Shown in pieces: positions 53,148-64,000 of a DNA stretch of 64,000 nt; the stretch's first letter is position 1; each line of letters begins with the position of its first letter. The stretch lies in contig CBDCVR010000015.1 of NCBI GenBank assembly GCA_965223155.1, forward strand, positions 608,001-672,000, read 5' to 3'. This DNA comes from Candidatus Multivoradales bacterium (lineage in GTDB: Bacteria; Acidobacteriota; Thermoanaerobaculia; Multivoradales; JAHEKO01). The notes below the pieces were generated by a model that was not told where the DNA came from, made no database searches, and was given only the letters and a program-made list of their open reading frames with translations. Position numbers and translations under genes: made by a program.

Positions 53148-55931
53148 TCAGTCCATCTCAGTGGGCTCAGCGGGGTCAGCGGGGTCAGCGGGGCCAGTGA
53201 TCCCATTGGCCCCATCGATCCCATTCGGCCCATCGGGCACCGAGGGCTCGAAGCGAAACCACACGACCGCGCGCGCGGTGCGCCCCGAAGACTCCTCGTG
53301 GTCCGGCCGCTCCAGGTCGCGCGCCGGATGGAACTTGGAGCCCATTCCCGGCAACCTGGCCGCCAGCGTCAGCTGATCCGGGGGCGGCACCTCGGCGCGA
53401 GCGCTGCGCGCGTCGTCCGGAAAGCCGGGCGACGACACCCCGACCGCCAAGCCGCCGGACTCGGAAAGGACGGTGAGAACACCGCCTGCCAACTCGAGGC
53501 GGAGCCAGGAGACGTCGTCGTAGAAACCCGCCGCTGCCGGCAGGGCCCTGCGCCACACGCCGACCCAGCCGCCTTCGCGCCGGTTCCGCCACACCGGCCA
53601 CGGCCCGCGCCCCAGCCATTCGACGGCCACCGGCTCGCCGGCAGCGAGCTCTGGCAGGGACAGTCCGGCCGCGGCGAAATCAGCAACCCCGGGTCCGACG
53701 GCGTAGGCGAGCTCCAACTCGAGTCGGTGCCAGCCTGCCGCTCGCGGCCGCCAGCGAGCCTCGGCCGCGGTGGCCGAGCCCAGAGCTTCGACCGGACCCG
53801 AGAATGGCAACTCGGCCGGGACGGCGCCGGTTACCACGTTCGCGGTCGAAGGCGCCGCGTCCCCGCTTCTCGCCGAACCGAGCCAGCGCGCCGCCAGCTC
53901 GCTCGGCGACCGGAGCGAGAAGACCCAGGTCTCGATCTCGCGCCCGCCGGGGGCGATCGCCGTAACACCAAGGGCATCGGCCCCGGGAATCTCCGTCACC
54001 GCCGGCGGTGGCCGGACCTCGACGGTCGCGCCCGGCGCAGTCGGGGGACCCGGCACCGTGGCGACGGCTAGAGGCTCCTTGGGTGGCTGCCCGGGACCGG
54101 GGAGCGCCAGGGCCTGCCAGCGGAACGCGACCCGATCCAGATCGGTGGTGTCGAAACGGTTCTCGACCCGGTAGCCACCGGCGCCGGACGGACGGATCTC
54201 GACCGGCGACCAGACCCGGCGCACGGTAGCGTAACTGGCCTCGGGCTTGCGGTAGGGATCGAGGATGCCGTCGGGAGCGTAGTTGCCGAAGGTATCGACC
54301 GCGCCCTCCCGGTCGGTCCGCTCGACGCCCTCGTCCAGAAACGCCCACAGAAACGCGCCCACCCCTCGCGCCGAGCCGGCGATGGCTTGCCAGAAGTCCC
54401 GCAAGCCCGCACCCAACCCACCGTCGTAGAGCCCGTGCAGCATCTCGGTCGGCAGCACCAGGGGTCGCGAGCGAGCAGGACCGAACCGAGCCCGACCGAG
54501 GAAACGACCTAGCCCGGCGCCGGGAGCGTCATCGAGCCAGGCCACCAGCTCCCGGTAGCTCGGATAGTGGGGCGCGGCGATGCCCGAGAAGGTCGCGTCC
54601 GGATGCAGGACTGGCCGCCCCTGGGGATCGTGCCGCGCGAACTCCCGGTCCAGCAAGCTGTTCCAGCCGCCCTCGTTGCCGTTTGCCCACAGGATCACCG
54701 AGGGATGGTTGACGTCGCGCCGCACCATCTCGGCGATCAGGCCGGCGCCTCGCGCCGGCCGGTAGGCGTCATGCCAACCCGGCAGCTCATCGATCACATA
54801 GAGGCCCGCCCGGTCACAAGCCTCGAGAAAGGACGTGTCCGGCGGATAGTGGGACGTGCGCACGGCGTTCGCGTTCATGCCGCGAATCGCCGCGACGTCG
54901 GCCCGATCGATCCGGGGACTCAGGGCCCGGCCCGAGGCCGGATGGAAGGCGTGCCGGTTGACGCCCTTGAGGAGAACCCTGCGGCCGTTGACATAGAGCC
55001 CCGGCCGGTCGGACTCGAGCCGTACCTCGACCGTGCGAAAGCCGAAGCGCTCGGCGACCCGATGGACAGGCTGACCGTCACAGAAGAGACGAAGCGCAAG
55101 CGTATAGAGCACCGGATCCTCGGCGCTCCACGGTCGGATCCCGGCCACCACTCCCGAAAGCTCGCCGGCCCGTCGCCCGCCGGGGCCCGGGCCCAGGCTC
55201 TGAAGCCCGTTCCCTTCCGAGCCGGCGGCGTCTTCCAAGACCTCAGCCTCCACCCGGCACCCGGCCCTCTCGCCACCCAGCTCGCCACCCAGCTCGTAGG
55301 CCACCCGGATTTGGCCGTCATGACGCGCATCGATCGCCACGTGCTCGATCGCCCGTGCCGGCCGGGCCTCCAGGTACACCGGCCGGTAGATGCCGCCGAA
55401 GACCCAGTAGTCCGCCTGGCGCTCGGCGCGTTCGACCGAACCGTCCGCCGAGGCCTCCGACACCTCGACCCGCAACCGATTCGAGCCGCCGTAGACCAGG
55501 TGATCGGCCACCGGATAGGAAAACCGGGTGAAGCCCCCGCGATGCACCGGGTCGAGCTCGACATCGTTCAGGGCCGCCCGGGTATCGGTCATCACCCCTT
55601 CGAACACCAACCGGATCCGTCGTTCCCGCCAGGAAGCCGGAACCTCGAACTCCACCTCGTAGCGCCCGATCTCGGCCCGCACCGCGTCGTCCTGGCCGTA
55701 CGCGTACTCACCGAAGCCGGCAAGCTCCCATTGCGACGGCACCGGAATGGTGGTGCGCTCTCCGGCCCGCCGGCCACGATCGATCCAGAACTTCCAAGGT
55801 ACGGGTTTGTCGCTGTTCGCGCCTGAAAGGAAGAGTCGTTCGGTGTCGATCGGTGCCTCGGCCGCCTCCGCCGCCGTCGAGACGAGGCATAATAGTAACC
55901 AAATGATTACCCAAATGCCCTTCATCCTCAC
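53148..55931 (-). CDS. Exported glycoside hydrolase family 2 (beta-galactosidase-like)
   Basis: Signal peptide, FEGV, DYW.FGGIYR, KGVNRH, NAVRTSHYP, NHPS..W..GNE (acid/base) and TEM.H (nucleophile). Start is 55931 GTG or 55925 ATG. Confidence 0.92.
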   Translation of the reverse strand: MRMKGIWVIIWLLLCLVSTAAEAAEAPIDTERLFLSGANSDKPVPWKFWIDRGRRAGERTTIPVPSQWELAGFGEYAYGQDDAVRAEIGRYEVEFEVPASWRERRIRLVFEGVMTDTRAALNDVELDPVHRGGFTRFSYPVADHLVYGGSNRLRVEVSEASADGSVERAERQADYWVFGGIYRPVYLEARPARAIEHVAIDARHDGQIRVAYELGGELGGERAGCRVEAEVLEDAAGSEGNGLQSLGPGPGGRRAGELSGVVAGIRPWSAEDPVLYTLALRLFCDGQPVHRVAERFGFRTVEVRLESDRPGLYVNGRRVLLKGVNRHAFHPASGRALSPRIDRADVAAIRGMNANAVRTSHYPPDTSFLEACDRAGLYVIDELPGWHDAYRPARGAGLIAEMVRRDVNHPSVILWANGNEGGWNSLLDREFARHDPQGRPVLHPDATFSGIAAPHYPSYRELVAWLDDAPGAGLGRFLGRARFGPARSRPLVLPTEMLHGLYDGGLGAGLRDFWQAIAGSARGVGAFLWAFLDEGVERTDREGAVDTFGNYAPDGILDPYRKPEASYATVRRVWSPVEIRPSGAGGYRVENRFDTTDLDRVAFRWQALALPGPGQPPKEPLAVATVPGPPTAPGATVEVRPPPAVTEIPGADALGVTAIAPGGREIETWVFSLRSPSELAARWLGSARSGDAAPSTANVVTGAVPAELPFSGPVEALGSATAAEARWRPRAAGWHRLELELAYAVGPGVADFAAAGLSLPELAAGEPVAVEWLGRGPWPVWRNRREGGWVGVWRRALPAAAGFYDDVSWLRLELAGGVLTVLSESGGLAVGVSSPGFPDDARSARAEVPPPDQLTLAARLPGMGSKFHPARDLERPDHEESSGRTARAVVWFRFEPSVPDGPNGIDGANGITGPADPADPAEPTEMD

Positions 55932-57019
55932 TCTCGACCCCCTCCGGAGTCAAAGAGCGGTAGCTGGTCACCCACCGGCCGGCGAAAGCTGGCGGCAGAC
56001 AGCTCGGGTCGTTCCTCCGGGAAGCCCGCCCGTCGGGCCGCGGTCCGAAAGAGCTGGCGCAGCTGCTCCGCCACCGGTCCCTGGCCGCGCCCCCGCCGCC
56101 CGAAGCGGCTCTCGTTGAGAGCACCCCCGCGCACATCCCGAATGCGAGAGAGAACGTGTTCCCGGCGCTCAGGAGCATGCTCCTCGAGCCACTCCGGAAA
56201 GAGCCGTGCGATCACCCCCGGCATGCGCAGCAGAATCCAGGAGGCGTGGCTTGCTCCGGAGTCGCGGGCCGCCTCTAGGATCGAAGGAATCTCGTGGTCC
56301 GTGAGAGCCGGAATCACGGGCGCAATGAGCACCCCCGCCGGAATCCCGGCTTGGGCCAGTTGCGAGATCGCCTTCAGGCGCTTGGCCGGGGCGCTTGCCC
56401 GCGGTTCGAGCCGGCGGGCGAGCTCGGAGTCCAGAGTCGGAATCGAAACCAGGACGGCGGCGGCCCGGTGCCGGGCAAGCTCCGCTAACGGCTCGACGTC
56501 CCGGGTCACGAGAAAGTTCTTGGTGACCACCGCGACCGGATTCCGGAAGCCCGCCAGAACCTCGAGGCAACCGCGGGTCAACTCGAGCTTCCGCTCGATC
56601 GGCTGGTACGGGTCGGTAACGCCCGAAAGACCCAGCGGCTGCGGCTTCCAAACGGGACGCGCCAGCTCCTCGGCCAGGAGCTCGGGAGCTCGATGCTTGA
56701 CCAGAATCCGGGTCTCGAAATCGAGGCCCGCCGACATCCCCAGATACTCGTGAGTCGGCCGCGCGTAGCAGTACGCACAGCCGTGCTCGCAGCCGCGATA
56801 GGGATTGACCGAAGCGTTGAATCCGACGTCGGGACTCTGGTTGCGGGCGATGACGCCTCTTGCGTCGTCGCGGAAGAAGCGCGTCGGGACGGTTGACGGC
56901 TGCCGCGCCTCGGACTCGGATTCATATTCGACGTCAAGACGCTCGAAGCGCGGCTTGGGGTTGCCGAGGCCCCCCCGACCTCGCACCTCGCTGCGTACCC
57001 GCCGTGGCCGGAATGCCAT
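55928..57019 (-). CDS. Radical SAM protein, PA0069/SplB-like family
   Basis: NPYRGCEHGCAYCYAR, TDPYQP.E, TK and LEP motifs. Confidence 0.92.
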   Translation of the reverse strand: MAFRPRRVRSEVRGRGGLGNPKPRFERLDVEYESESEARQPSTVPTRFFRDDARGVIARNQSPDVGFNASVNPYRGCEHGCAYCYARPTHEYLGMSAGLDFETRILVKHRAPELLAEELARPVWKPQPLGLSGVTDPYQPIERKLELTRGCLEVLAGFRNPVAVVTKNFLVTRDVEPLAELARHRAAAVLVSIPTLDSELARRLEPRASAPAKRLKAISQLAQAGIPAGVLIAPVIPALTDHEIPSILEAARDSGASHASWILLRMPGVIARLFPEWLEEHAPERREHVLSRIRDVRGGALNESRFGRRGRGQGPVAEQLRQLFRTAARRAGFPEERPELSAASFRRPVGDQLPLFDSGGGRE

Positions 57020-57170
57020 CGGCCAACTCTACTCGACCGCCCCAACCACGGCGCCCATCCGAAGGGAGCCAACTGAAGCCAACTGAGGCCAAATATGGCC
57101 CAATGAGGCCGCATCGGGGAAGGCCGGAGCAAACTGGGACTCCCACGAGATGCGAAGCCGCCTGGCAGAA

Positions 57171-57196
57171 TGCAACGGACCGGACTAATCTCCGTA
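57171..57196 (+). promoter_or_regulatory. ECF sigma-type promoter candidate
   Basis: TGCAAC-N16-CGTA upstream of the methyltransferase. Confidence 0.6.
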
Positions 57197-57289
57197 TCTA
57201 TGGACAACGAGGTACCGCTTGCTTCCGCCGGTCCGCGGTGCCCGACCCGACGCTTCGACATCAACCAATCCACCTCCGAGGCGGCCGCC

Positions 57290-58003
57290 ATGAACTCCAT
57301 CCGACCCCGTTCCGTTGACTCGCCCCGGCCCGCCCTTCCGGTCCCATCTGAGACGGCCGTTCGGCCGGCCCGCTCGGAGCGGCTCCGCGCCGGCATTGCC
57401 GGCGCCGCCTTTCTCATCCTGTCCGGAGCCTGCCAGCTCCTGGGCGCCGATCCCGCCGAGGTGGAGCGCATCGAGGCGCTTCTACAACTCGAGGAGGGCT
57501 CGCTCGTCGCCGATGTCGGCGCCGGCGACGGGGACTGGGCCGTGGCACTGGCCGAAGGCGTCGGGACCTCGGGCAGGGTCTGGGCCACCGAGGTCAAGGA
57601 AGACCTGGTCGAAGACATCGAGCGCCTCGCCGAGTCCCGCGGCCTCGACAACCTGACCGCGGTCCTGGGCGACCAAGAGACGATCGGCCTGCCGGAGGCC
57701 TGCTGCGAAGCCATCTTGATCCGCATGGTCTACCACCACTTCCAAGAACCCGACCTGATGCGCCGCGAGCTGTGGCGGGCGCTCAAGCCCGGGGGCCTGG
57801 TGGCGGTCCTCGACATCGTGCCGCAGACCCACTGGCGTCAGTTGCCCGACGTTCCCGACCGCGGCGGTCACGGCATTCCGACCGAGGCCCTGGAGCGGGA
57901 GATGGTGGCCTCGGGCTTCGAGGTCGTCAGCCGCCACCCGCGCTGGAACGACGACGAGGAACGCTTCGCAGTGCTCTTCCGGCGCCCACCTTCCGGGCCT
58001 TGA
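57290..58003 (+). CDS. Class I SAM-dependent methyltransferase, probably exported/lipoprotein
   Basis: ADVGAGDG motif I, YHH and ALKPGG; hydrophobic stretch ending LSGAC. Start uncertain (57200/57290). Confidence 0.85.
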   Translation: MNSIRPRSVDSPRPALPVPSETAVRPARSERLRAGIAGAAFLILSGACQLLGADPAEVERIEALLQLEEGSLVADVGAGDGDWAVALAEGVGTSGRVWATEVKEDLVEDIERLAESRGLDNLTAVLGDQETIGLPEACCEAILIRMVYHHFQEPDLMRRELWRALKPGGLVAVLDIVPQTHWRQLPDVPDRGGHGIPTEALEREMVASGFEVVSRHPRWNDDEERFAVLFRRPPSGP

Positions 58004-58072: not shown

Positions 58073-60040
58073 CTAGTACCAAGTAACCCGGCGTACCGGC
58101 TGGAAGAGCCCGGTCGCCCGGGCGCATTCCGGTTCTACGGGACAAAGGTCGCACTCGGGCTCGGACATCTCCGGACATCGAGAGCGGTTTTGAAACAGGA
58201 AGAAATCGACGGCGCCCATCGAAAGGCCGGACGCCGAAGCTAGCTCGGCCACGGCCAGATAGGAGGCTTCCCGGACGGCGTCGTGCTCGGCAGCCGTCAG
58301 GAGCCGGCGCGCTTCGAGCCGGCCGCGGAGCTGGGGATCTTCGATCCGCACCAGACCCATGCGCAGGCAGCTTCGCTGGACGTGGTAATCGACGATCGGC
58401 GCCAGCTCGTCGGGCCGCTCGCCAGAGGGTCCCGCGGACGAGTCGAGCCAGCGCTCGGGCCGTTGCCGCAGAATTGCCGCCAGCAGCATCGCCTTCTTGC
58501 GAAGAGGATCCTCACGCAGGCCGGGGAGGTGGTCGAGCTGGACGAGCAACGTCCCAAGCGGCTCCGACGCCTCGTTGGCTCGGGTCACGATGGCCGCCGG
58601 CGAACGCCGCCACTCCTTCAGCACCTCCCCATACGAGCTCAGAAGCCGCCAGCGCTCAGCCATCTGCGGGAACGGGCAGACGCCATCGTCCGCCGCCAGG
58701 CGGCGCTCGAGCTCTTCCGGCCGGAGAGCGGCCAGCCGCTCGGGGGTAAACGCCGACCGGTCCTGCCGGAGCCAGCGAAGAAAGGCGGCAAAGAGCGCGT
58801 CCGAGCCTTTGAGACGATCACCGCCGATCCGGGTCCACATCGGCCCAGCGTAAGCCCGCCCATCGTCGTGCCAGAATCCGAACTGAAGCACCGTCACGGC
58901 AAAGAAGAGCTCCAGAGCGCCCTCTTCCTCAGGATCCGGAAACCACGGGCCCACGAACCCAAATACAGTAACTTCATGGTTACCAGACAAGAGCCTGCCG
59001 ATCTGTTGGACTCGGGCCTGATCGACCCGGGCCGCCTTGGTCTCTCGAACGGCCCCGGAGCCTCCCAACCGCCCGCTCCAAACGCCCTCAGAAGCCCCGC
59101 CCGCGCCGGCCTCATCCGCCAGGCTCAAGAGACGCGCGCGCCCTCCGGCCCCAAGCACCCTTGAGGCCAGGGAGACGCCTCGGCGGGCGACGAGCACTGG
59201 ATGCTCGCGGCGGGCCAGGCCCGCCAGGGCGGCACCGCAGAACATGTCGCCGCCACCGGTCGGGTCCGTGACGGGCGCGAGGGCATCGATCCGAGAGGAC
59301 AGAACCGGCCCGGCGGCCTTGGCCGGGGCCGCCTCCCGGACCGGCTCCGACACCACCCGGGTCGAAAACGACCCTTGCACCACCAAAGCGCCACGGGCAC
59401 CGAGGGTCACCAGGCGCAGCCGGCCCGGAGGCGTCGCCAGCGCTTCAGGCATCACCGAGTCATCCTCGGTCACGAGCCAGCCGAAAAGCGAGCGATGCTC
59501 TTCCTCGTTGCAGAAGAAGACGTCGGCCAGCGCGATCGCGGCCAGGAGCTCGGGACGGGCCGCCGCGGCCGCGGCCGGATAAGTCCCCGTCGCCACCAAG
59601 CCGCTCAGGGACCTGAGCTCGCGAACCATCGCCAGTTGGCGCTCGGTCTCGGCGAACGGAATCGAGAAGGCAGCCGCCCACGGGCCGGCGGCGGATCCCA
59701 GCATCGAGATCTCGAGGTCGCTCTCAGCGCCGGGATCGGCGTCCACATAGCGGGCCCGGCCCGCGCCGTCGATCTCGATCTCGAAGCGCGGCAGATCCTC
59801 GACGGCAACCTTGGGACCGAGCCATTCGAGACGGCCGTTCGCCCCGGCCAGCTCGGGCGGCATCGGATCCGGGCGCGGCGCGAGCATGGTCACCTGGGCC
59901 CCGGCGGCCTCCGCCGCCAGAGCGGTAAAGAGCCCGGCGCCGCCGAACATTCGCCGCTCCTCCACACCGGTCCGGACCCGATCCCGGGAGGCTCCCCCGA
60001 CGATCAGGATGCGAGGCCTAGAACCGCTGACGCCGGTCAG
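58073..60040 (-). CDS. Fusion: PfkB-family kinase + queuosine-salvage (Qng1/DUF2419)-like N-glycosylase + C-terminal 4-Cys cluster motif
   Basis: PfkB motifs ILIVG..S.D, GGAG, NEEE and DPTGGGD. Qng1-like motifs QFGFW, RKKAML, VDYHV...LRMG, E..VR and VDFFLF. Tail C-x7-C-x2-C-x5-C. Start extended to CTG 60040 (ORF track gives GTG 59965). Confidence 0.8.
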   Translation of the reverse strand: MTGVSGSRPRILIVGGASRDRVRTGVEERRMFGGAGLFTALAAEAAGAQVTMLAPRPDPMPPELAGANGRLEWLGPKVAVEDLPRFEIEIDGAGRARYVDADPGAESDLEISMLGSAAGPWAAAFSIPFAETERQLAMVRELRSLSGLVATGTYPAAAAAARPELLAAIALADVFFCNEEEHRSLFGWLVTEDDSVMPEALATPPGRLRLVTLGARGALVVQGSFSTRVVSEPVREAAPAKAAGPVLSSRIDALAPVTDPTGGGDMFCGAALAGLARREHPVLVARRGVSLASRVLGAGGRARLLSLADEAGAGGASEGVWSGRLGGSGAVRETKAARVDQARVQQIGRLLSGNHEVTVFGFVGPWFPDPEEEGALELFFAVTVLQFGFWHDDGRAYAGPMWTRIGGDRLKGSDALFAAFLRWLRQDRSAFTPERLAALRPEELERRLAADDGVCPFPQMAERWRLLSSYGEVLKEWRRSPAAIVTRANEASEPLGTLLVQLDHLPGLREDPLRKKAMLLAAILRQRPERWLDSSAGPSGERPDELAPIVDYHVQRSCLRMGLVRIEDPQLRGRLEARRLLTAAEHDAVREASYLAVAELASASGLSMGAVDFFLFQNRSRCPEMSEPECDLCPVEPECARATGLFQPVRRVTWY

Positions 60041-60076
60041 GATCGATCCCCTTCGCGGCCGCGGTCCCAGAAGCCG

Positions 60077-61321
60077 CTAGGCCGACTCGACCGGCAGAAC
60101 ACCGTCCAGAACCTCGCTCGAGCTCTCCTCGTCGCGCCCAATCCCGGCCGCCAGCAGACGCGCGCCGACCATCAAGATCGCGGCCAGCCAGAACGGCCAC
60201 CGAATGCCGACGTGCTGAAAGACCGCACCCGCCCAGATCGGGCCGACCATGCGAGCCACGCCGCCGAAGGCCTGCTGAACGCCCAGGATCAAGCCGGTCT
60301 GGCCTTCGGGCGCGCGGTGCGAGACCAGCGAGGTCGTGGTGGGGAACAAGAGGGCCGTCCCGACCGGAATCAGCAATACGCCGGCGCACAGCGTCCAGAT
60401 CGATCCGGCAAAGGGCGCCGCCGCCATGCCCACCGCTACCGCCAGCGCGCCCAGCCGCATCGCTCCGCGCTCGCCGAACCTTGCCACCGCCGGGCCCAGA
60501 AGAAGCGATCGCATCACCAGCGACACGCCGCCGATGTACATGAAGAACCAGCCGATGGTCTTCTCATTGATACCAAAGACGCGCTCGAGGTAAAGCGCGA
60601 AGATCCCGTTCATGGCCATGAACGCCATCATGCCCAGGGTGTAAACCCAGACCAGCCGGGCCAGAGGATGGGCGGGATGCCGCAGGAAGGCTCCAATGGC
60701 CTTGCGCACGCTGCCTCGACGTCGCTTCGTCGCCCCGTCGGCCGCCCGACCGGATCCACTTGCCGAGCTCGACTCGGGCAGCCAGCGCAAGCCAAAGGCG
60801 AAATTAAGGACGCACAGGATCGCCGCCAGGTAGCCGGGGCCGATCCAGCCCAGCGCGGCCGCCAACGATCCCAGCGCCGGACCCATCATGACGCCGGCGC
60901 TGGTGGCCGCCGTCAGCCAGCCCAGAGCCTTGGCGCGATCCTGCCGCGGCACCGAGTCACTGACGTAGGCCTGAACGACGCCGGTCGTGCCGCTGCCGGC
61001 CCCCTGGACGAAGCGAGACAGGAAGAGCAGCCAGACGGCATCCGCCACTTCGAAGATGGTGTAGGCACCGGCCGAGACCAGAAGACCCAGCAGAATCATC
61101 GGGCGGCGCCCATAGTGGTCCGAGAGCCGGCCCCAGAGCGGCGCCGTGATGAGCTGGGCAAGCGCGAACATCGAAACCAGGGCTCCGACTCGGATCGGAT
61201 CGGCTCCCAGCTTTTCGGCGTAGAAAGGCAGAAGCGGCAGGACGATGAAGAACCCCAGCATGTCGACGAAGACCGTCGCCATCAGCACCCAGATCCTGCG
61301 CAGCGGATGGCCGTCGCTCAT
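60077..61321 (-). CDS. MFS transporter (DHA1/TetA-like)
   Basis: D.LG...V.P.LP, GRLSDHYGRRP motif A and G...GP.LG motif C. ATG 61321 overlaps the upstream TGA. Confidence 0.93.
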   Translation of the reverse strand: MSDGHPLRRIWVLMATVFVDMLGFFIVLPLLPFYAEKLGADPIRVGALVSMFALAQLITAPLWGRLSDHYGRRPMILLGLLVSAGAYTIFEVADAVWLLFLSRFVQGAGSGTTGVVQAYVSDSVPRQDRAKALGWLTAATSAGVMMGPALGSLAAALGWIGPGYLAAILCVLNFAFGLRWLPESSSASGSGRAADGATKRRRGSVRKAIGAFLRHPAHPLARLVWVYTLGMMAFMAMNGIFALYLERVFGINEKTIGWFFMYIGGVSLVMRSLLLGPAVARFGERGAMRLGALAVAVGMAAAPFAGSIWTLCAGVLLIPVGTALLFPTTTSLVSHRAPEGQTGLILGVQQAFGGVARMVGPIWAGAVFQHVGIRWPFWLAAILMVGARLLAAGIGRDEESSSEVLDGVLPVESA

Positions 61322-63012
61322 GCCGTCGCCTCCCGGCGGCTCCAGGCCACGAATGCGAATGCGCTTGCCACCATGAGCAGGACGCCGTAGGCGGCGGCGA
61401 CTCCAGTTTCTTGCAGACGCAGGTTCGACAGAATCTCGATCGAGATCGGCCGGGTTTCGAAGGTGTAGAGGACGATCGAGGTGACGAAGTCCCCAAGCGC
61501 GGTGATGAACGCCAGCCCGGCGCCGGCGGCCAGCGCCGGACGCACCATCGGTAACACCACCCGGCGCAGCCGCAGCCAGCGGCCCGCGCCCAGTCCGGCC
61601 GCGGCCTCCTCCAGCGTTCGATCGAATTGCCGTAAGCCGGCAAAAGCGCTCCTGCCGGTGACCGGAAGGCTGCGCACCAGGTACGCCAGGGGCAGGATCA
61701 CCGGCGTGCCGATCAGAACGAACCGGCCGGCCCATGGGGCCGAAACCGCGAACGCGGTTGCCAGAGCGATGGCGAAGACGGTGCCGGGAATCGCCCAGGG
61801 CAGGGCGACCAGGGTCTCCAAAAGCGAGCCCAGCCGGCCGCCCCGGGCCAGCGCCGTGCGCGCCGTAGCCAGGCCTAGAGCCAGCGCTCCGGCGGTCGAG
61901 GCCGCCGCCATCCACAGAGAATTCCCGACCGGCCGCAGCCGCTCAGGCGCCGAGATCAGCGACCGGTAGTTGGACAGGTCCAGGACTGGCGGCAGCGCTT
62001 CGACCGTCCACGTCCCGGAAGGCACGAACGACACCACCAGCAGCGTCAAGTGCGGCAGAAGAAGAAAGAGCGCGAGCGACCATCCGGCGGCGGTCGCCAG
62101 AGCTCGCGCGGCCGGGCTCTCGAGCGACCGCCGCCGCGGGGCCAGTCCGCGCACGCCGCCGATGACCGCCGAGCGGCGCCGATCGAAGGCGATCAAGGCC
62201 CCGAGACCGGCCACCGCCACCAGCGCCAGGACTACGGTCTCGACCTGGGCCATCGTGGTCTCGCCGTTGAGCTTCGAGGCGACGATCTGGGTGGTCATCA
62301 CCCGGAAGCCGCCGCCAAAGATGTACGGCGCCGAAAACGACGACAGCGAGGTCATGAAGGTCAGAAGCGCGGCGCCCGCCAGCGCCGGCTTGAGAAGCGG
62401 CAGAACCACCCGCCGGAGCCGCGCCCAGCGACCCGCCCCGAGCGCCGCCGCCGCTTCTTCCATCGATGGGTCGAGCCGGCTCAGCGCGGCCCGCGCGAAG
62501 AGGTAGAAATAGACGTACATCGAATAGGCGTGCACCAAGAGAATGGCACCGGCGCCGCGCAGCCGCCACGGCGGCCGCTCCAGCCCCAGGACAAAGCCGG
62601 CCGCCCGCGTCAGAAAGCCGCTCTCGCCGTACAGGAAGAGAAAGGCCAGAACGCCGACCAGCGGTGGCAGCGCCACCGGCAGGGCGATCAATCCGCCCAG
62701 AACGGCCCTGCCGGGAAACTCGAAACGCTCGAAGACGAACGCCAGGGGCACGCCGACTGCCGCCGCCAGCGCCACCGAGGCGAGCGAGATCCAGACGCTG
62801 CGCCAGAGCGCCAACCACTCGTCCGGCCGGCGGCCAAACTCGGCAAAACCAGCGAACGACGGTTGCGTCGGAATCCCGAGCGCTTCGAGTACCGTCAGCG
62901 CCAGCGGATAGCCCACCAGCCAGGCGAGAACGAGAGCCAGAGCCGGCCCCCAGAGCCGATTTCGGAGCCGGGACCGAATCGGCCCGGGCGCCCGCCGCGG
63001 CTCGGCGCTCAA
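61318..63012 (-). CDS. ABC transporter permease (Fe3+/thiamine/polyamine-type, two EAA loops)
   Basis: EEAAAALGA and EEAAAGLGA loops, LPPLVG and IPGTV; TTG start overlaps the ATPase stop. Confidence 0.9.
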   Translation of the reverse strand: MSAEPRRAPGPIRSRLRNRLWGPALALVLAWLVGYPLALTVLEALGIPTQPSFAGFAEFGRRPDEWLALWRSVWISLASVALAAAVGVPLAFVFERFEFPGRAVLGGLIALPVALPPLVGVLAFLFLYGESGFLTRAAGFVLGLERPPWRLRGAGAILLVHAYSMYVYFYLFARAALSRLDPSMEEAAAALGAGRWARLRRVVLPLLKPALAGAALLTFMTSLSSFSAPYIFGGGFRVMTTQIVASKLNGETTMAQVETVVLALVAVAGLGALIAFDRRRSAVIGGVRGLAPRRRSLESPAARALATAAGWSLALFLLLPHLTLLVVSFVPSGTWTVEALPPVLDLSNYRSLISAPERLRPVGNSLWMAAASTAGALALGLATARTALARGGRLGSLLETLVALPWAIPGTVFAIALATAFAVSAPWAGRFVLIGTPVILPLAYLVRSLPVTGRSAFAGLRQFDRTLEEAAAGLGAGRWLRLRRVVLPMVRPALAAGAGLAFITALGDFVTSIVLYTFETRPISIEILSNLRLQETGVAAAYGVLLMVASAFAFVAWSRREATA

Positions 63013-64000
63013 GAGCGCACCCGCTCGGCAGCGGCGAAGGCAACCGGTGGATGAGCGTCCGGACGCGGCTCGAGAGTGACCTCGGCGCCCGGCGTCCGGT
63101 CGGACTCATCCAGCCACTCGACCGTACCGCCAGACGCCAACCGGCCGGTCACGAGGCTGTCCCGGCCCACGAACCGGCGCTCCTCGACCTGCGCAGCGAG
63201 GGTCGAGCCCGCCCGGGTCGGGCCAACCGGACCCGGGCCCGAAGTTGCTCTCCAGAACTCGGGCCGCACATAGAGCTCGACGCGCTCGCCGGCACTCAGT
63301 CGCCCCGTCCCGACCTCGGCCGGAAGGCTCGATCCGTTCTCGAGCTCGACCGTGCCGTCCTCTCGCCAGCGCCCGGCGAGCACCGACGACCTGCCCACGA
63401 AACCGGCCACGAACGGGGTCTCGGGCCGGCGGTAGATGGCCTCGGGCGTGCCCACCTGATGCAACCGCCCTTCTTCGAGTACTGCCACCAAGGTACCTAC
63501 GTCGAACGCCTCGTCTTGTTCGTGCGTCACCCAGACCGCGGTGATCCCGATCCGGTCGAGGGTGGCCGCCAGCTCGCGCCGCGTTCGCTCGCGCAGATCC
63601 GGGTCCAGGTTCGAGAGCGGCTCGTCCAGGAGCAGCACGTCCGGCTCCGGTGCCAGCGCCCGTGCCAGCGCGACCCGTTGCTGCTGACCGCCGGAGATCG
63701 CGTCCACCCGCCGGTCGGCGAAGTCCTCGAGATCGACCGCCGCCAACGCCTTGTCGATCCGGCCGGCCGGGTCGAGGCCACGGGCCTCAAGACCGAACGC
63801 CACGTTCTCGCCCACCGACAGGTGTGGGAAAAGCGCGTAGTGCTGGAACACCATGCCGAAGTTGCGCCGCTCAGGAGGAAGCTCGCCCAGCGAGCCGCCG
63901 GCCAGGCGTACGTCACCGGTGTCCGCCCGCTCGAAGCCGGCAACGAGACGCAGCAGCGTCGTCTTACCGCTGCCGCTCCGGCCCAGGAGGACCAAAGTGT
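63009..64000 (-). CDS. ABC transporter ATP-binding protein (5'-truncated by the window edge)
   Basis: GRSGSGKT, ISGGQQQR, LLDEP and a TOBE domain. Confidence 0.92.
   Translation of the reverse strand, partial: TLVLLGRSGSGKTTLLRLVAGFERADTGDVRLAGGSLGELPPERRNFGMVFQHYALFPHLSVGENVAFGLEARGLDPAGRIDKALAAVDLEDFADRRVDAISGGQQQRVALARALAPEPDVLLLDEPLSNLDPDLRERTRRELAATLDRIGITAVWVTHEQDEAFDVGTLVAVLEEGRLHQVGTPEAIYRRPETPFVAGFVGRSSVLAGRWREDGTVELENGSSLPAEVGTGRLSAGERVELYVRPEFWRATSGPGPVGPTRAGSTLAAQVEERRFVGRDSLVTGRLASGGTVEWLDESDRTPGAEVTLEPRPDAHPPVAFAAAERVRS

What the first reader, a model, noticed from the sequence alone, without database searches (positions are those of the whole stretch)
58073..64000. ABC-MFS-[kinase + Qng1-like glycosylase + Fe-S] operon: candidate one-polypeptide salvage system for queuosine or another modified nucleoside
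Seen: four tightly spaced, co-oriented genes end in a ~655-aa fusion. Its N-half has ribokinase/PfkB motifs (GG substrate switch, NxxE, DPTGGGD). Its C-half follows the motif order of the queuosine salvage family by eye: QFGFW~NFCFW, RKKAML~YKRAQI, IVDYHVQR.CLRMG~FADYRVPQ.L..LG, EHDAVR~EVEIR and VDFFLF~IDWWLW. Known: Qng1 releases queuine preferentially from queuosine-5'-monophosphate. Inference: the fused kinase could phosphorylate imported nucleoside to make the 5'-NMP substrate, or recycle the ribose, with the ABC/MFS transporters moving substrate or base. I do not know of a characterised fusion of this kind.
Basis: partly seen in the sequence, partly recalled or inferred. Interest (0 to 1): 0.85.

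Follow-up and report, generated by a model that had tools for sequence, protein, structure and literature searches.

The report
Kinase fused to Qng1-like nucleotide glycosylase
This gene encodes a conserved but unstudied enzyme that joins a sugar/nucleoside kinase to an iron-sulfur relative of the queuosine-salvage glycosylase Qng1, probably to split an imported nucleoside into base plus ribose-5-phosphate, although queuosine itself is not shown to be the substrate.

Summary
On the minus strand, 58073-60040 encodes a 655-aa protein. Its N-half is a PfkB kinase (Pfam 44.2 bits). Its C-half is a Qng1/Q_salvage homologue (39.2 bits; family profile vs StQng1 E 3.4e-14; Foldseek TM 0.77-0.79). It has an invariant C-x7-C-x2-C-x5-C motif and an invariant C-terminal Tyr.

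The fusion is a real, widespread, uncharacterised family: 243 or more full-length homologues, plus stand-alone ~320-aa forms. The Qng1 catalytic Asp-Tyr, the HhH Lys, the guanine-edge Asp and a basic phosphate pocket are kept. The queuine side-chain pocket and proton relay are replaced (D69T, N72Q, Y93S, W94D, D207I).

The ABC/MFS linkage is peculiar to this genome. The commonest neighbour elsewhere is a CNT nucleoside transporter (8 of 92 loci).

This genome has TGT, QueA and QueG but no QueC or QueF, and so does nearly its whole order. In a Gemmatimonadota lineage, 28 of 31 carriers have QueC.

Best reading: a nucleoside kinase coupled to a nucleoside-5'-monophosphate N-glycosylase acting on a guanine-like nucleoside. 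Queuosine is a candidate, not a conclusion.

The parts
58073..60040 (-). Fusion gene, 655 aa plus stop: PfkB-type kinase, linker, Qng1-like glycosylase with a 4-Cys motif. The public gene call (625 aa, P0001) starts about 30 residues too late.
60038..60054 (-). Probable ribosome-binding site GAAGGGGA (60054-60047) and non-canonical CTG start (60040-60038). ATC at 60043 is an alternative start.
   Evidence: the conserved N-terminal strand lies upstream of the first GTG; the sequence is identical in four run assemblies. The start codon is inferred, not shown.
59141..60040 (-). PfkB kinase domain (residues 1 to about 300). GG at 59939-59944, NxxE at 59498-59509, DPTGGGD at 59246-59266. A window-specific low-confidence insert spans residues 241-257.
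59036..59140 (-). Inter-domain linker (residues about 301-335). It is partly low-confidence and longer here than in homologues.
58076..59035 (-). Qng1-like (Q_salvage, HhH fold) N-glycosylase domain, residues about 336-655. Catalytic Asp551-Tyr552 at 58385-58390. C-terminal Tyr655 at 58076-58078.
58124..58177 (-). C-x7-C-x2-C-x5-C motif (Cys622, 630, 633, 639), a probable [4Fe-4S] cluster loop. The segment is acidic.
   Evidence: weak matches to the EndoIII Fe-S region
60077..61321 (-). MFS transporter (MFS_1, 208.7 bits). It resembles Tet(A)-type DHA1 exporters but scores far below their cut-offs. Its ATG overlaps the permease stop. Its linkage to the fusion gene is specific to this genome.
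61318..63012 (-). ABC permease with two fused BPD_transp_1 halves (PhnU2/ThiP-like, below the equivalog cut-offs).
63009..64000 (-). ABC ATPase with a TOBE_2 domain. It runs off the window end. The solute-binding protein gene follows at G000:C15:672093-673196.

Best explanation
The gene encodes a bifunctional enzyme of an uncharacterised but widespread family. The proposed steps are as follows.
1. The N-terminal PfkB-type kinase phosphorylates the 5'-OH of an imported ribonucleoside, using ATP.
2. The C-terminal Qng1-like HhH-fold N-glycosylase hydrolyses the resulting nucleoside-5'-monophosphate to free base plus ribose-5-phosphate. It uses Asp551, Lys515/516 and the C-terminal Tyr655 carboxylate, and is stabilised by a [4Fe-4S] cluster on four invariant cysteines.
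3. The base is probably guanine-like, either a purine or a 7-deazapurine, because the Asp that reads the guanine edge in Qng1 is kept.
4. The pocket around position 7 is rebuilt, so the substrate is probably not bound the way Qng1 binds queuosine. It may be a different modified guanosine.

What is shown: the domain identities, the fold, the residue conservation, the family's distribution and its neighbours. What is inferred: the two activities, their order, the cluster and the substrate class.

In this genome the gene sits at the end of an SBP-ATPase-permease-MFS transporter operon. In other genomes it most often sits beside a CNT nucleoside transporter.
For: Domains and fold:
- Pfam PfkB 44.2 bits and Q_salvage 39.2 bits, both above their cut-offs.
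- The AF2 model has pLDDT 88.1 and pTM 0.90.
- Foldseek matches the N-half to ribokinases and nucleoside kinases (TM 0.61-0.72). It matches the C-half to StQng1 7u07/7u5a/7ulc/7u91 (TM 0.77-0.79) and to human QNG1 7ugk (TM 0.75).
- The family profile matches StQng1 at E 3.4e-14 over profile positions 3-292 of 319.

Conserved residues:
- Kinase motifs are invariant or nearly so in 44 fused members.
- Equivalents of Qng1 D231-Y232, K199, D298 and C-terminal Y323 are kept in 44 of 44 fused members. In 51 mostly stand-alone members they are kept in 46 to 49. Their roles come from sections 21, 22 and 27 of PMC9881137.
- At the phosphate site (R80, K233, Q306 in StQng1; section 23) the family has invariant K411, H553, R556 and R619.

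Precedent from Qng1: it prefers the 5'-monophosphate, and the kinase upstream of it is unidentified.

Genomic context:
- A CNT nucleoside transporter is the most widely shared neighbour, in 8 of 92 loci and in three different arrangements. In three genomes of one genus it lies 5-17 nt upstream.
- One member has a GTP cyclohydrolase II domain in place of the kinase (P0215). That partner also binds guanine nucleotides.
- Among the 61 genomes searched (G000 plus 60 relatives), 6 of 8 carriers have IU-type nucleoside hydrolases, against 14 of 53 non-carriers. Kin are not independent.
Against: - No activity has been measured for any member.
- The kinase substrate cannot be read from sequence. The ribokinase equivalog scores 23.4 bits against a cut-off of 299.65, and no nucleoside-kinase model matched.
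- CNT adjacency covers only 8 of 92 loci. Many loci are short, and several of the 8 come from related organisms.
- The phosphate-pocket mapping rests on a sequence alignment that has a 6-residue gap next to R80. No coordinates were available for checking it.
- The Fe-S cluster is inferred from the Cys spacing only.
- Stand-alone members have no kinase gene within 1.5 kb in 21 loci, so coupling to a kinase is not universal in the family.
Confidence: 0.55

Rival explanations
1. The enzyme is a one-polypeptide queuosine (or other 7-deazaguanosine) salvage system. The kinase makes Q-5'-MP, the glycosylase releases queuine or a preQ-type base, and that base feeds TGT.
For: - Qng1 is the only characterised relative. 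It prefers Q-5'MP, and its kinase is unknown.
- The guanine-edge Asp and the C-terminal Tyr are kept.
- This genome (98.66% complete) has TGT, QueA and QueG but no QueC, no QueF and no convincing QPTR.
- In a Verrucomicrobial lineage the stand-alone form is found in 31 of 49 genomes without QueC, against 1 of 12 with QueC.
- The new Ser-Asp pair in the position-7 pocket could suit a cationic aminomethyl group. This is inference.
Against: - The residues that bind the queuine side chain and relay the proton are replaced: D69 to T (43 of 44), N72 to Q (44 of 44), Y93 to S, W94 to D, D207 to I/V.
- Lack of QueC is a trait of the whole order: only 2 of 61 genomes have a real QueC, while 8 of 61 carry the fusion.
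- In a Gemmatimonadota lineage 28 of 31 carriers have QueC, against 6 of 50 non-carriers.
- QueC is also present in carriers G306 and G108.
- No TGT or QueA lies in the 92 loci, 896 kb.
- No riboswitch was found.
- This genome's TGT has the Cys and Val of preQ1-type enzymes (the residue rule is recalled, not taken from a call). Queuine would then need a queuine lyase, for which I had no model to search with.
Confidence: 0.25
2. The order is reversed. The glycosylase cleaves a nucleoside to base plus ribose, and the PfkB half is a ribokinase that recycles the free ribose.
For: The top Foldseek hits of the N-half are ribokinases. StQng1 also cleaves the free nucleoside Q, only 1.7-fold more slowly than Q-5'MP.
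Against: - The ribokinase equivalog TIGR02152 scores 23.4 bits against a cut-off of 299.65.
- The GG motif reads GGAGLYTA, not the GGKGANQA of ribokinase (the ribokinase motif is recalled).
- The glycosylase keeps and strengthens a basic phosphate pocket.
Confidence: 0.08
3. The C-half is a DNA or RNA base-excision glycosylase of the HhH/Fe-S type, and the kinase half has an unrelated or regulatory role.
For: It has an HhH fold. Its 4-Cys spacing is close to the EndoIII cluster loop. There are weak hits to ROS1 (E 0.033) and EndoIII (E 0.3). AGOG matches 2 of 51 members. Some Atlas clusters carry automatic names such as 'AP lyase family'.
Against: - Pfam HhH-GPD scores 14 bits, below its cut-off of 26.2.
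- The best fold and profile matches are Qng1, not DNA glycosylases.
- The Qng1-type beta-hairpin after FGFW and the C-terminal tail ending in Tyr are present. In Qng1 these fill the DNA cleft.
- The Cys loop is acidic, with a mean net charge of -3.1 in 44 fused members.
- The domain is fused to a small-molecule kinase and sits beside nucleoside transporters.
Confidence: 0.03

Closest known systems
Qng1 / QNG1 (DUF2419, Pfam Q_salvage PF10343), the queuosine-5'-monophosphate N-glycosylase; structures 7u07, 7u91, 7ugk
   Same: It shares the HhH two-lobe fold (TM 0.75-0.79). It keeps the catalytic Asp-Tyr, the HhH Lys, the Asp that reads the guanine edge, an aromatic lid residue, and a C-terminal tail ending in Tyr. 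It has a basic pocket where the 5'-phosphate sits.
   Different: A 4-Cys (probable [4Fe-4S]) insert precedes the C-terminal tail. The proton relay D69/N72/D207 and the cyclopentenediol pocket Y93/W94 are replaced by T/Q/I and S/D. K233 becomes His. The beta4-beta5 hairpin is reduced to a loop. Most close members are fused to a kinase. There is no consistent co-distribution with loss of de novo Q synthesis.
PfkB family kinases (ribokinase; adenosine and nucleoside kinases); closest solved sequence 3kd6, 'Carbohydrate kinase, PfkB family'
   Same: It has the fold, the GG switch, the NxxE motif and the DPTGxGD anion hole with catalytic Asp.
   Different: It does not reach any equivalog cut-off. 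The residues after GG differ from ribokinase. It is covalently joined to a glycosylase.
Pseudouridine kinase YeiC plus pseudouridine-5'-phosphate glycosidase YeiN, and the archaeal nucleoside kinase / NMP phosphorylase route (recalled knowledge, not from a call)
   Same: The logic is the same: a PfkB kinase first makes the 5'-monophosphate, then the glycosidic bond is cleaved to give a base and a phosphorylated ribose.
   Different: The cleaving enzymes belong to unrelated folds. No sequence relation was tested here.
Endonuclease III / MutY type HhH-GPD DNA glycosylases with an iron-sulfur cluster loop
   Same: It shares the HhH fold and four Cys near the C-terminus, with spacing x7-x2-x5. EndoIII has x6-x2-x5 (recalled).
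   Different: It scores below the Pfam HhH-GPD cut-off. Its loop is acidic. The cleft is filled by Qng1-type inserts. Its context is small-molecule metabolism.

Membership tests
Qng1 / Q_salvage (PF10343) | Pfam model above the gathering score | tested here: met
   39.2 bits (whole protein) and 41.7 bits (C-half) against a cut-off of 25, covering only model positions 5-134 of 285. 40 of 51 family members match.
Qng1 / Q_salvage (PF10343) | Homology and fold over the whole domain to solved Qng1 | tested here: met
   Family profile vs 7uk3/7u07: E 3.4e-14, profile positions 3-292 of 319. Foldseek TM 0.77-0.79, rmsd 3.4-4.0.
Qng1 / Q_salvage (PF10343) | Catalytic HhH Asp (D231) followed by Tyr232, and the HhH Lys (K199) | tested here: met
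   D551, Y552, K515 and K516 are present in 44 of 44 fused members. Among 51 mostly stand-alone members: D 49, Y 46, K 48.
Qng1 / Q_salvage (PF10343) | C-terminal Tyr whose carboxylate completes the active site (Y323) | tested here: met
   The last residue is Tyr in 44 of 44 and in 47 of 51. Role taken.
Qng1 / Q_salvage (PF10343) | Asp that reads the 7-deazaguanine edge (D298), and the aromatic W302 | tested here: met
   D612 in 44 of 44 and 46 of 51. Position 616 is F in 44 of 44, and W or F in 47 of 51.
Qng1 / Q_salvage (PF10343) | Proton relay D69-N72-D207 to the queuine secondary amine | tested here: not met
   T383 in 43 of 44, Q386 in 44 of 44, I/V523 in 44 of 44.
Qng1 / Q_salvage (PF10343) | Aromatic cyclopentenediol pocket (W48, Y93, W94, W299) | tested here: not met
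   Y93 becomes S (43 of 44) and W94 becomes D (43 of 44). W48 becomes F, so an aromatic is kept there. Position 613 is W in 33 of 44.
Qng1 / Q_salvage (PF10343) | 5'-phosphate pocket (R80, K233, Q306) | tested here: inconclusive
   K233 becomes the invariant H553. Invariant K411, R556 and R619 lie at or next to the aligned positions. The alignment is gapped near R80 and no coordinates were available.
Qng1 / Q_salvage (PF10343) | Co-distribution with TGT in genomes that lack de novo Q synthesis | tested here: inconclusive
   Fits this genome and the Verrucomicrobial stand-alone forms: 31 of 49 QueC-negative against 1 of 12 QueC-positive genomes. Contradicted in Gemmatimonadota, where 28 of 31 carriers have QueC. 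Both patterns are confounded by kinship.
Qng1 / Q_salvage (PF10343) | Releases queuine from Q-5'MP | not testable with these tools
   Needs an enzyme assay.
PfkB carbohydrate/nucleoside kinases (PF00294) | Pfam model above the gathering score, plus the GG, NxxE and DxxGxGD motifs and the fold | tested here: met
   44.2 bits against 25.8. Motifs in 43-44 of 44. Profile vs 3kd6: E 3.1e-19. TM 0.61-0.72 to ribokinases and nucleoside kinases.
Ribokinase RbsK (TIGR02152 equivalog) | Equivalog model above its cut-off | tested here: not met
   23.4 bits against 299.65.
HhH-GPD DNA glycosylases (PF00730) with an Fe-S cluster loop | Pfam model above the gathering score, and a basic cluster loop for DNA contact | tested here: not met
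   14 bits against 26.2. EndIII_4Fe-2S matches 1 of 51 members at E 0.0062. Mean loop net charge is -3.1.

The most novel reading that the evidence does not exclude
The family is the missing nucleoside kinase of 7-deazaguanine salvage, caught in fusion with its partner. The PfkB half would be a queuosine (or preQ-type ribonucleoside) 5'-kinase. The Fe-S Qng1 paralogue would release a base that bacterial TGT can use. Together they would form a one-polypeptide, channelled salvage route. That would also point to PfkB-type kinases as candidates for the unidentified eukaryotic queuosine kinase.
Probability: 0.25. Interest if true: 0.85.

Novelty: new variant of a known kind. Interest (0 to 1): 0.6.

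Why it matters
Hung et al. 2023 (PMC9881137) showed that Qng1 works on queuosine-5'-monophosphate and stated that the kinase making it is unidentified. A conserved natural fusion of a kinase to a Qng1 homologue is the kind of gene-fusion clue that can name such a missing partner, if the substrate proves to be queuosine.

It would matter even if the substrate is another nucleoside. The family would then define a new bacterial route from nucleoside to base plus ribose-5-phosphate. It would also be, as far as I know (recalled, not searched), the first HhH-fold glycosylase with an Fe-S cluster that acts on a mononucleotide. It is present in hundreds of sequence clusters across Acidobacteriota-like, Gemmatimonadota, Actinomycetota, Chloroflexota, Verrucomicrobiota and Bacteroidota genomes, and in archaea. 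There it is now annotated only as 'carbohydrate kinase' or 'hypothetical protein'.

Tried and rejected
- Conserved transporter linkage. tblastn with this operon's SBP, permease, ATPase and MFS found nothing in 9 distant loci except one generic ATPase hit. It found nothing in 6 relatives' loci. In 92 loci it found only weak, distant hits in L130 and L140.
- Q genes nearby. There is no TGT or QueA in the 92 loci; one weak QueG-like ferredoxin hit lies about 5 kb away in L119.
- Riboswitches. The only hit is a sub-threshold psbNH match inside the coding region. Nothing but two tRNAs turned up in 10 loci.
- The neighbouring radical SAM gene (55928-57019) as a queuine lyase. It belongs to the PA0069 family (453.6 bits) and recurs only in the same-genus relative. 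I had no model or sequence for QueL, so this stays open.
- Displacement of nucleoside phosphorylase or hydrolase. PNP_UDP_1 is in 61 of 61 genomes, and IU hydrolases are commoner in carriers, not rarer. Rejected.
- Phylum-wide co-occurrence. Only 3 of 251 genomes carry the family, too few to test.
- Context of the stand-alone forms. In Verrucomicrobia they follow nadD-like and rsfS genes, which is uninformative.
- Promoter and terminator scan. No promoter-like site; the four terminator-like sites are no more than the shuffles gave (mean 2.5).
- RNA evidence. No RNA holder is listed.
- Earlier findings of this scan. Nothing to show.
- Zallot et al. 2014 is not held, and supplements are closed. 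A mention of a kinase fusion or neighbour could therefore be hidden there, in Supplementary Figures S2/S7 of PMC9881137, or in Tables S2/S3 of PMC11130926.
- A metagenome scan with alignment A2 failed because no stretch was conserved enough. It was rerun with the closer alignment A3.


Full report
**What is there.** The last 6 kb of the window carry co-oriented minus-strand genes:
- an ABC ATPase, from 63009 past the window end at 64000;
- a permease with two fused halves, 61318-63012, overlapping the ATPase by 4 nt;
- an MFS transporter, 60077-61321, whose ATG overlaps the permease TGA as ATGA;
- the fusion gene.

The solute-binding protein of the ABC system lies just past the window end, at G000:C15:672093-673196. 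Downstream, a SAM methyltransferase gene (57170-58003, plus strand) converges on the fusion gene, so the fusion gene is the last of its unit.

**The start codon.** The first ATG/GTG/TTG in the fusion frame is GTG at 59965. The frame is open for 37 more codons. These encode 'RILIVGGASRD', the first beta-strand and ribose-binding Asp region that all 43 aligned homologues have. The AF2 model gives this strand high confidence. A Shine-Dalgarno-like GAAGGGGA lies 6 nt before CTG at 60040. The start itself is inferred. Contigs of four public runs (two samples, one study, possibly the source) are identical over 59700-60300, so this assembly shows no local error there. The public gene call of 625 aa (P0001) is probably too short at its N-terminus.

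**Domain identities.**
- Pfam gives PfkB 44.2 bits (cut-off 25.8) and Q_salvage 39.2 bits (cut-off 25). HhH-GPD stays below its cut-off at 14 bits against 26.2.
- NCBIfam gives only a far sub-threshold ribokinase hit, 23.4 bits against 299.65.
- An AF2 model built on 44 sequences has pLDDT 88.1 and pTM 0.90. Its low-confidence regions are the N-terminal five residues, a window-specific insert (241-257) and the linker (315-331).
- Foldseek against the PDB matches the N-half to ribokinases and nucleoside kinases (TM on target 0.61-0.72).
- It matches the C-half to Sphaerobacter Qng1 (7u07, 7u5a, 7ulc, 7u1o, 7u91; TM 0.77-0.79, rmsd 3.4-4.0) and to human QNG1 (7ugk; TM 0.75).
- A profile of 51 family members matches StQng1 at E 3.4e-14 over nearly the whole domain.
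- A profile of the N-half matches the PfkB kinase 3kd6 at E 3.1e-19.

**A family, not an accident.**
- The word-indexed search found 243 proteins at E <= 1e-3 among the 8000 candidates scored.
- The best 120 are 569-644 aa, cover 95-100% of the query and are 40-48% identical, leaving aside the window's own protein (100%).
- Those that are named come from Actinomycetota, Gemmatimonadota, Chloroflexota and Acidobacteriota MAGs. They carry only 'carbohydrate kinase', 'ribokinase' or 'hypothetical protein' as names.
- All 120 have a precomputed PF00294 hit, and 14 of 120 also have PF10343.
- An exhaustive phmmer search with the C-half against 1.84 billion representatives gave 334 hits at E <= 1e-3, 152 at <= 1e-10 and 78 at <= 1e-30. 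These include both fused forms of about 600 aa and stand-alone forms of 310-340 aa.
- The stand-alone forms keep the same motifs. Forty of the 51 aligned members match Q_salvage.
- One member (P0215) has a GTP cyclohydrolase II domain in place of the kinase.
- The Atlas lists related clusters in Verrucomicrobiota, Bacteroidota and Thermoproteota. Their automatic names include 'iron-sulfur cluster loop family protein'.

**Kinase residues.** Among 44 fused members the kinase motifs are kept: GG in 44, N of NxxE in 43, E in 44, and the two Asp of DPTGxGD in 44 each.

**Glycosylase residues kept.** The HMMER alignment to chain 7u07_A can be read in StQng1 numbering, because D69, N72, F75, W76, G92, Y93 and W94 fall on those chain indices. 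The roles below come from sections 21, 22, 23 and 27 of PMC9881137.

| StQng1 residue | This protein | 44 fused members | 51 mostly stand-alone members |
|---|---|---|---|
| D231-Y232 | D551-Y552 | 44 | 49 and 46 |
| K199 | K515/K516 | 44 | 48 |
| I203 | L519/L520 | – | – |
| D298 | D612 | 44 | 46 |
| W302 | F616 | – | F or W in 47 |
| C-terminal Y323 | Y655 | 44 | 47 |

**Glycosylase residues replaced.** Counts are among the 44 fused members.

| StQng1 residue | Role | This family |
|---|---|---|
| D69 | proton relay | T (43 of 44) |
| N72 | proton relay | Q (44 of 44) |
| D207 | proton relay | I or V (44 of 44) |
| Y93 | queuine side-chain pocket | S (43 of 44) |
| W94 | queuine side-chain pocket | D (43 of 44) |

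**The phosphate site.** K233 becomes the invariant H553. Invariant K411, R556 and R619 lie at or beside the positions aligned to R80/G92, K233 and Q306.

Taken together, the catalytic machinery, the recognition of the guanine edge, the ribose/C-terminal carboxylate device and a basic phosphate pocket are all conserved. The part of the pocket that recognises the queuine 7-substituent is rebuilt.

**The four cysteines.** C622, C630, C633 and C639 are invariant in the 44 fused members. A C-x(6-8)-C-x2-C-x(4-6)-C motif is found in 45 of 51 other members. The spacing is x7-x2-x5 in 86 of the 89 cases where the motif is found. From memory, the EndoIII cluster loop is x6-x2-x5. The profile touches the EndoIII Fe-S region only weakly (E 0.3), and PF10576 matches 1 of 51 members. 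The loop is acidic, with a mean net charge of -3.1 in the fused members (window sequence). That argues against a DNA-contact role. A structural [4Fe-4S] cluster that positions the C-terminal tail is my inference.

**Neighbourhoods.**
- The transporter operon of this window does not travel with the gene. No MFS, permease or SBP hit was found in 9 distant loci or in 6 loci from relatives. That includes the same-genus genome G001, where only the downstream radical SAM and methyltransferase genes are syntenic.
- In 92 loci (896 kb) there are only weak, distant hits, in L130 and L140.
- An unbiased clustering of flanking ORFs put a CNT-family nucleoside transporter first (Nucleos_tra2_N/Gate/Nucleos_tra2_C). 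It is present in 8 of the 92 loci.
- Its position varies: 5-17 nt upstream in three genomes of one genus (L059, L061, L063), upstream in L079, directly downstream in L062 and L093, and divergent in L082 and L097.
- The other top clusters are lineage-specific synteny blocks.
- Every locus with enough upstream sequence carries the kinase half, except the Verrucomicrobial L012.
- No TGT or QueA is present in these loci, and no Rfam family reaches threshold apart from two tRNAs.

**The queuosine question, across genomes.**
- This genome (98.66% complete) has TGT (467.6 bits), QueA (401.1 bits) and QueG (309.4 bits). It has no QueC, no QueF, and only a sub-threshold QPTR hit.
- Its TGT is closest to Zymomonas TGT and keeps 'DECpp' and 'GGVSVGE'. 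By the residue rule I recall (Cys158/Val233 for preQ1, Val/Gly for queuine) it is preQ1-type.
- So the cell needs preQ1, and queuine would help only with a queuine lyase. I had no model with which to search for one.
- This profile is not specific to carriers. Among the 61 genomes searched (G000 plus 60 relatives), TGT is in 59 and a full-length QueC in only 2 (G002, G054). The other listed QueC matches are partial hits of 31 bits or less. The fusion is in 8. In G029 it is in three pieces.
- In a phylum-wide sample the family is in 3 of 251 genomes.
- Elsewhere the picture splits. In the relatives of a Verrucomicrobial genome the stand-alone form is in 32 of 61 genomes. That is 31 of the 49 without QueC and 1 of the 12 with QueC. 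TGT is in 56 of 61.
- In the relatives of a Gemmatimonadota carrier the fused form is in 31 of 81 genomes. Of those 31, 28 have QueC, against 6 of 50 non-carriers.
- Carriers G306 and G108 also have QueC. It was not found in G307, G369 and G370, whose completeness is unknown.
- Both lineage patterns are confounded by kinship. Together they show that the fused enzyme is not confined to organisms that must salvage Q precursors.

**Mechanism.** The best-supported reading is a two-step, possibly channelled reaction: nucleoside plus ATP gives the nucleoside-5'-monophosphate, which is then hydrolysed to base plus ribose-5-phosphate. The grounds are:
- the intact kinase motifs;
- the Qng1 precedent of preference for the 5'-monophosphate, with an unidentified kinase upstream;
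- the conserved basic phosphate pocket;
- the confident fixed packing of the two domains (pTM 0.90);
- the recurrent nucleoside transporter neighbour.

The same logic is known, from memory, for pseudouridine (YeiC/YeiN) and for the archaeal nucleoside kinase / NMP phosphorylase route. The conserved D612 suggests a guanine-like base. The new S413/D414/Q386/T383 surface suggests a substituent or charge different from that of queuine. Candidates are a preQ-type aminomethyl group, N7-methylguanine, or another modified guanine. None of these is tested.

In this genome the MFS is closest to Tet(A)-type exporters, but at 164 bits against a cut-off of 475. The ABC importer could move the substrate or the products, but because the linkage is unique to this genome it carries little weight.

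**Literature.**
- In the searched library no paper holds 'queuosine kinase', or Qng1 together with ribokinase.
- PF10343, IPR019438 or Q_salvage appear in two papers, neither about a fusion.
- In PMC11130926, which surveyed Qng1 neighbourhoods and fusions, 'kinase' occurs 0 times in the main text.
- For PMC9881137 I read the abstract, the 'find' passages and sections 21, 22, 23 and 27. It calls the kinase unidentified.
An earlier mention there cannot be excluded.

**Verdict.** This is a new, conserved variant of a known kind: a Qng1-like nucleotide glycosylase that carries an Fe-S motif and is fused to its probable kinase. The substrate is unresolved. Interest is 0.6. It would be about 0.85 if the substrate proves to be queuosine or another 7-deazaguanosine, which I put at about 0.25.

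Noticed in passing
window 59963-60040: The fusion gene has no ATG/GTG/TTG upstream of its conserved first strand. A CTG (60040) or ATC (60043) start after GAAGGGGA is likely. The public gene call (P0001, 625 aa) is probably about 30 residues short at its N-terminus.
   Followed up: partly
whole genomes G000-G060: Almost the whole order lacks QueC (a real match in 2 of 61 genomes) but keeps TGT (59 of 61). G000 also has QueA and QueG. The lineage seems to depend on imported preQ1-type precursors. G000 has no QPTR above the cut-off (23.5 bits), so the importer is unknown.
   Followed up: partly
P0215: A 554-aa protein joins a GTP cyclohydrolase II domain (130.9 bits) to the Fe-S Qng1-like domain (residues 248-548). 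This is a second fusion partner that handles guanine nucleotides.
   Followed up: no
G029:C51:22549-24293 (L055-L057, L063): The orthologue in relative G029 matches in three separate pieces (query residues 7-238, 258-391 and 417-655). It is probably frameshifted or decaying.
   Followed up: no
window 55928-57019 (-) and 57170-58003 (+): A PA0069-family radical SAM protein (453.6 bits) and a class I SAM methyltransferase lie just downstream of the fusion gene. The same pair lies near the orthologue in the same-genus genome G001 (L058) but not elsewhere.
   Followed up: partly
window 53148-55931 (-): A 927-aa glycoside hydrolase family 2 protein with a hydrophobic N-terminus that may be a signal peptide. 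Its start overlaps the stop of the radical SAM gene.
   Followed up: no
window residues 241-257 and about 305-331 of the fusion protein (59270-59320 and 59048-59128): Two Ala/Gly-rich insertions are absent from all 43 aligned homologues and are modelled with pLDDT below 50.
   Followed up: no
L009:8527-9996, L007:8115-9479 and five further loci: A protein of about 450-490 aa with no Pfam match lies directly upstream of the fusion gene in 7 loci, the three named ones being Gemmatimonadota, next to a multicopper oxidase. This may be lineage synteny or a functional partner.
   Followed up: no
L144-L163, L012: In Verrucomicrobia the stand-alone Fe-S Qng1-like gene lies downstream of a nadD-like cytidylyltransferase gene and an rsfS gene.
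   Followed up: partly
L002:9378-9448 (-) and 9796-9885 (+), that is G000:C15:681378-681885: Two divergent tRNA genes lie about 17 kb beyond the window end.
   Followed up: no
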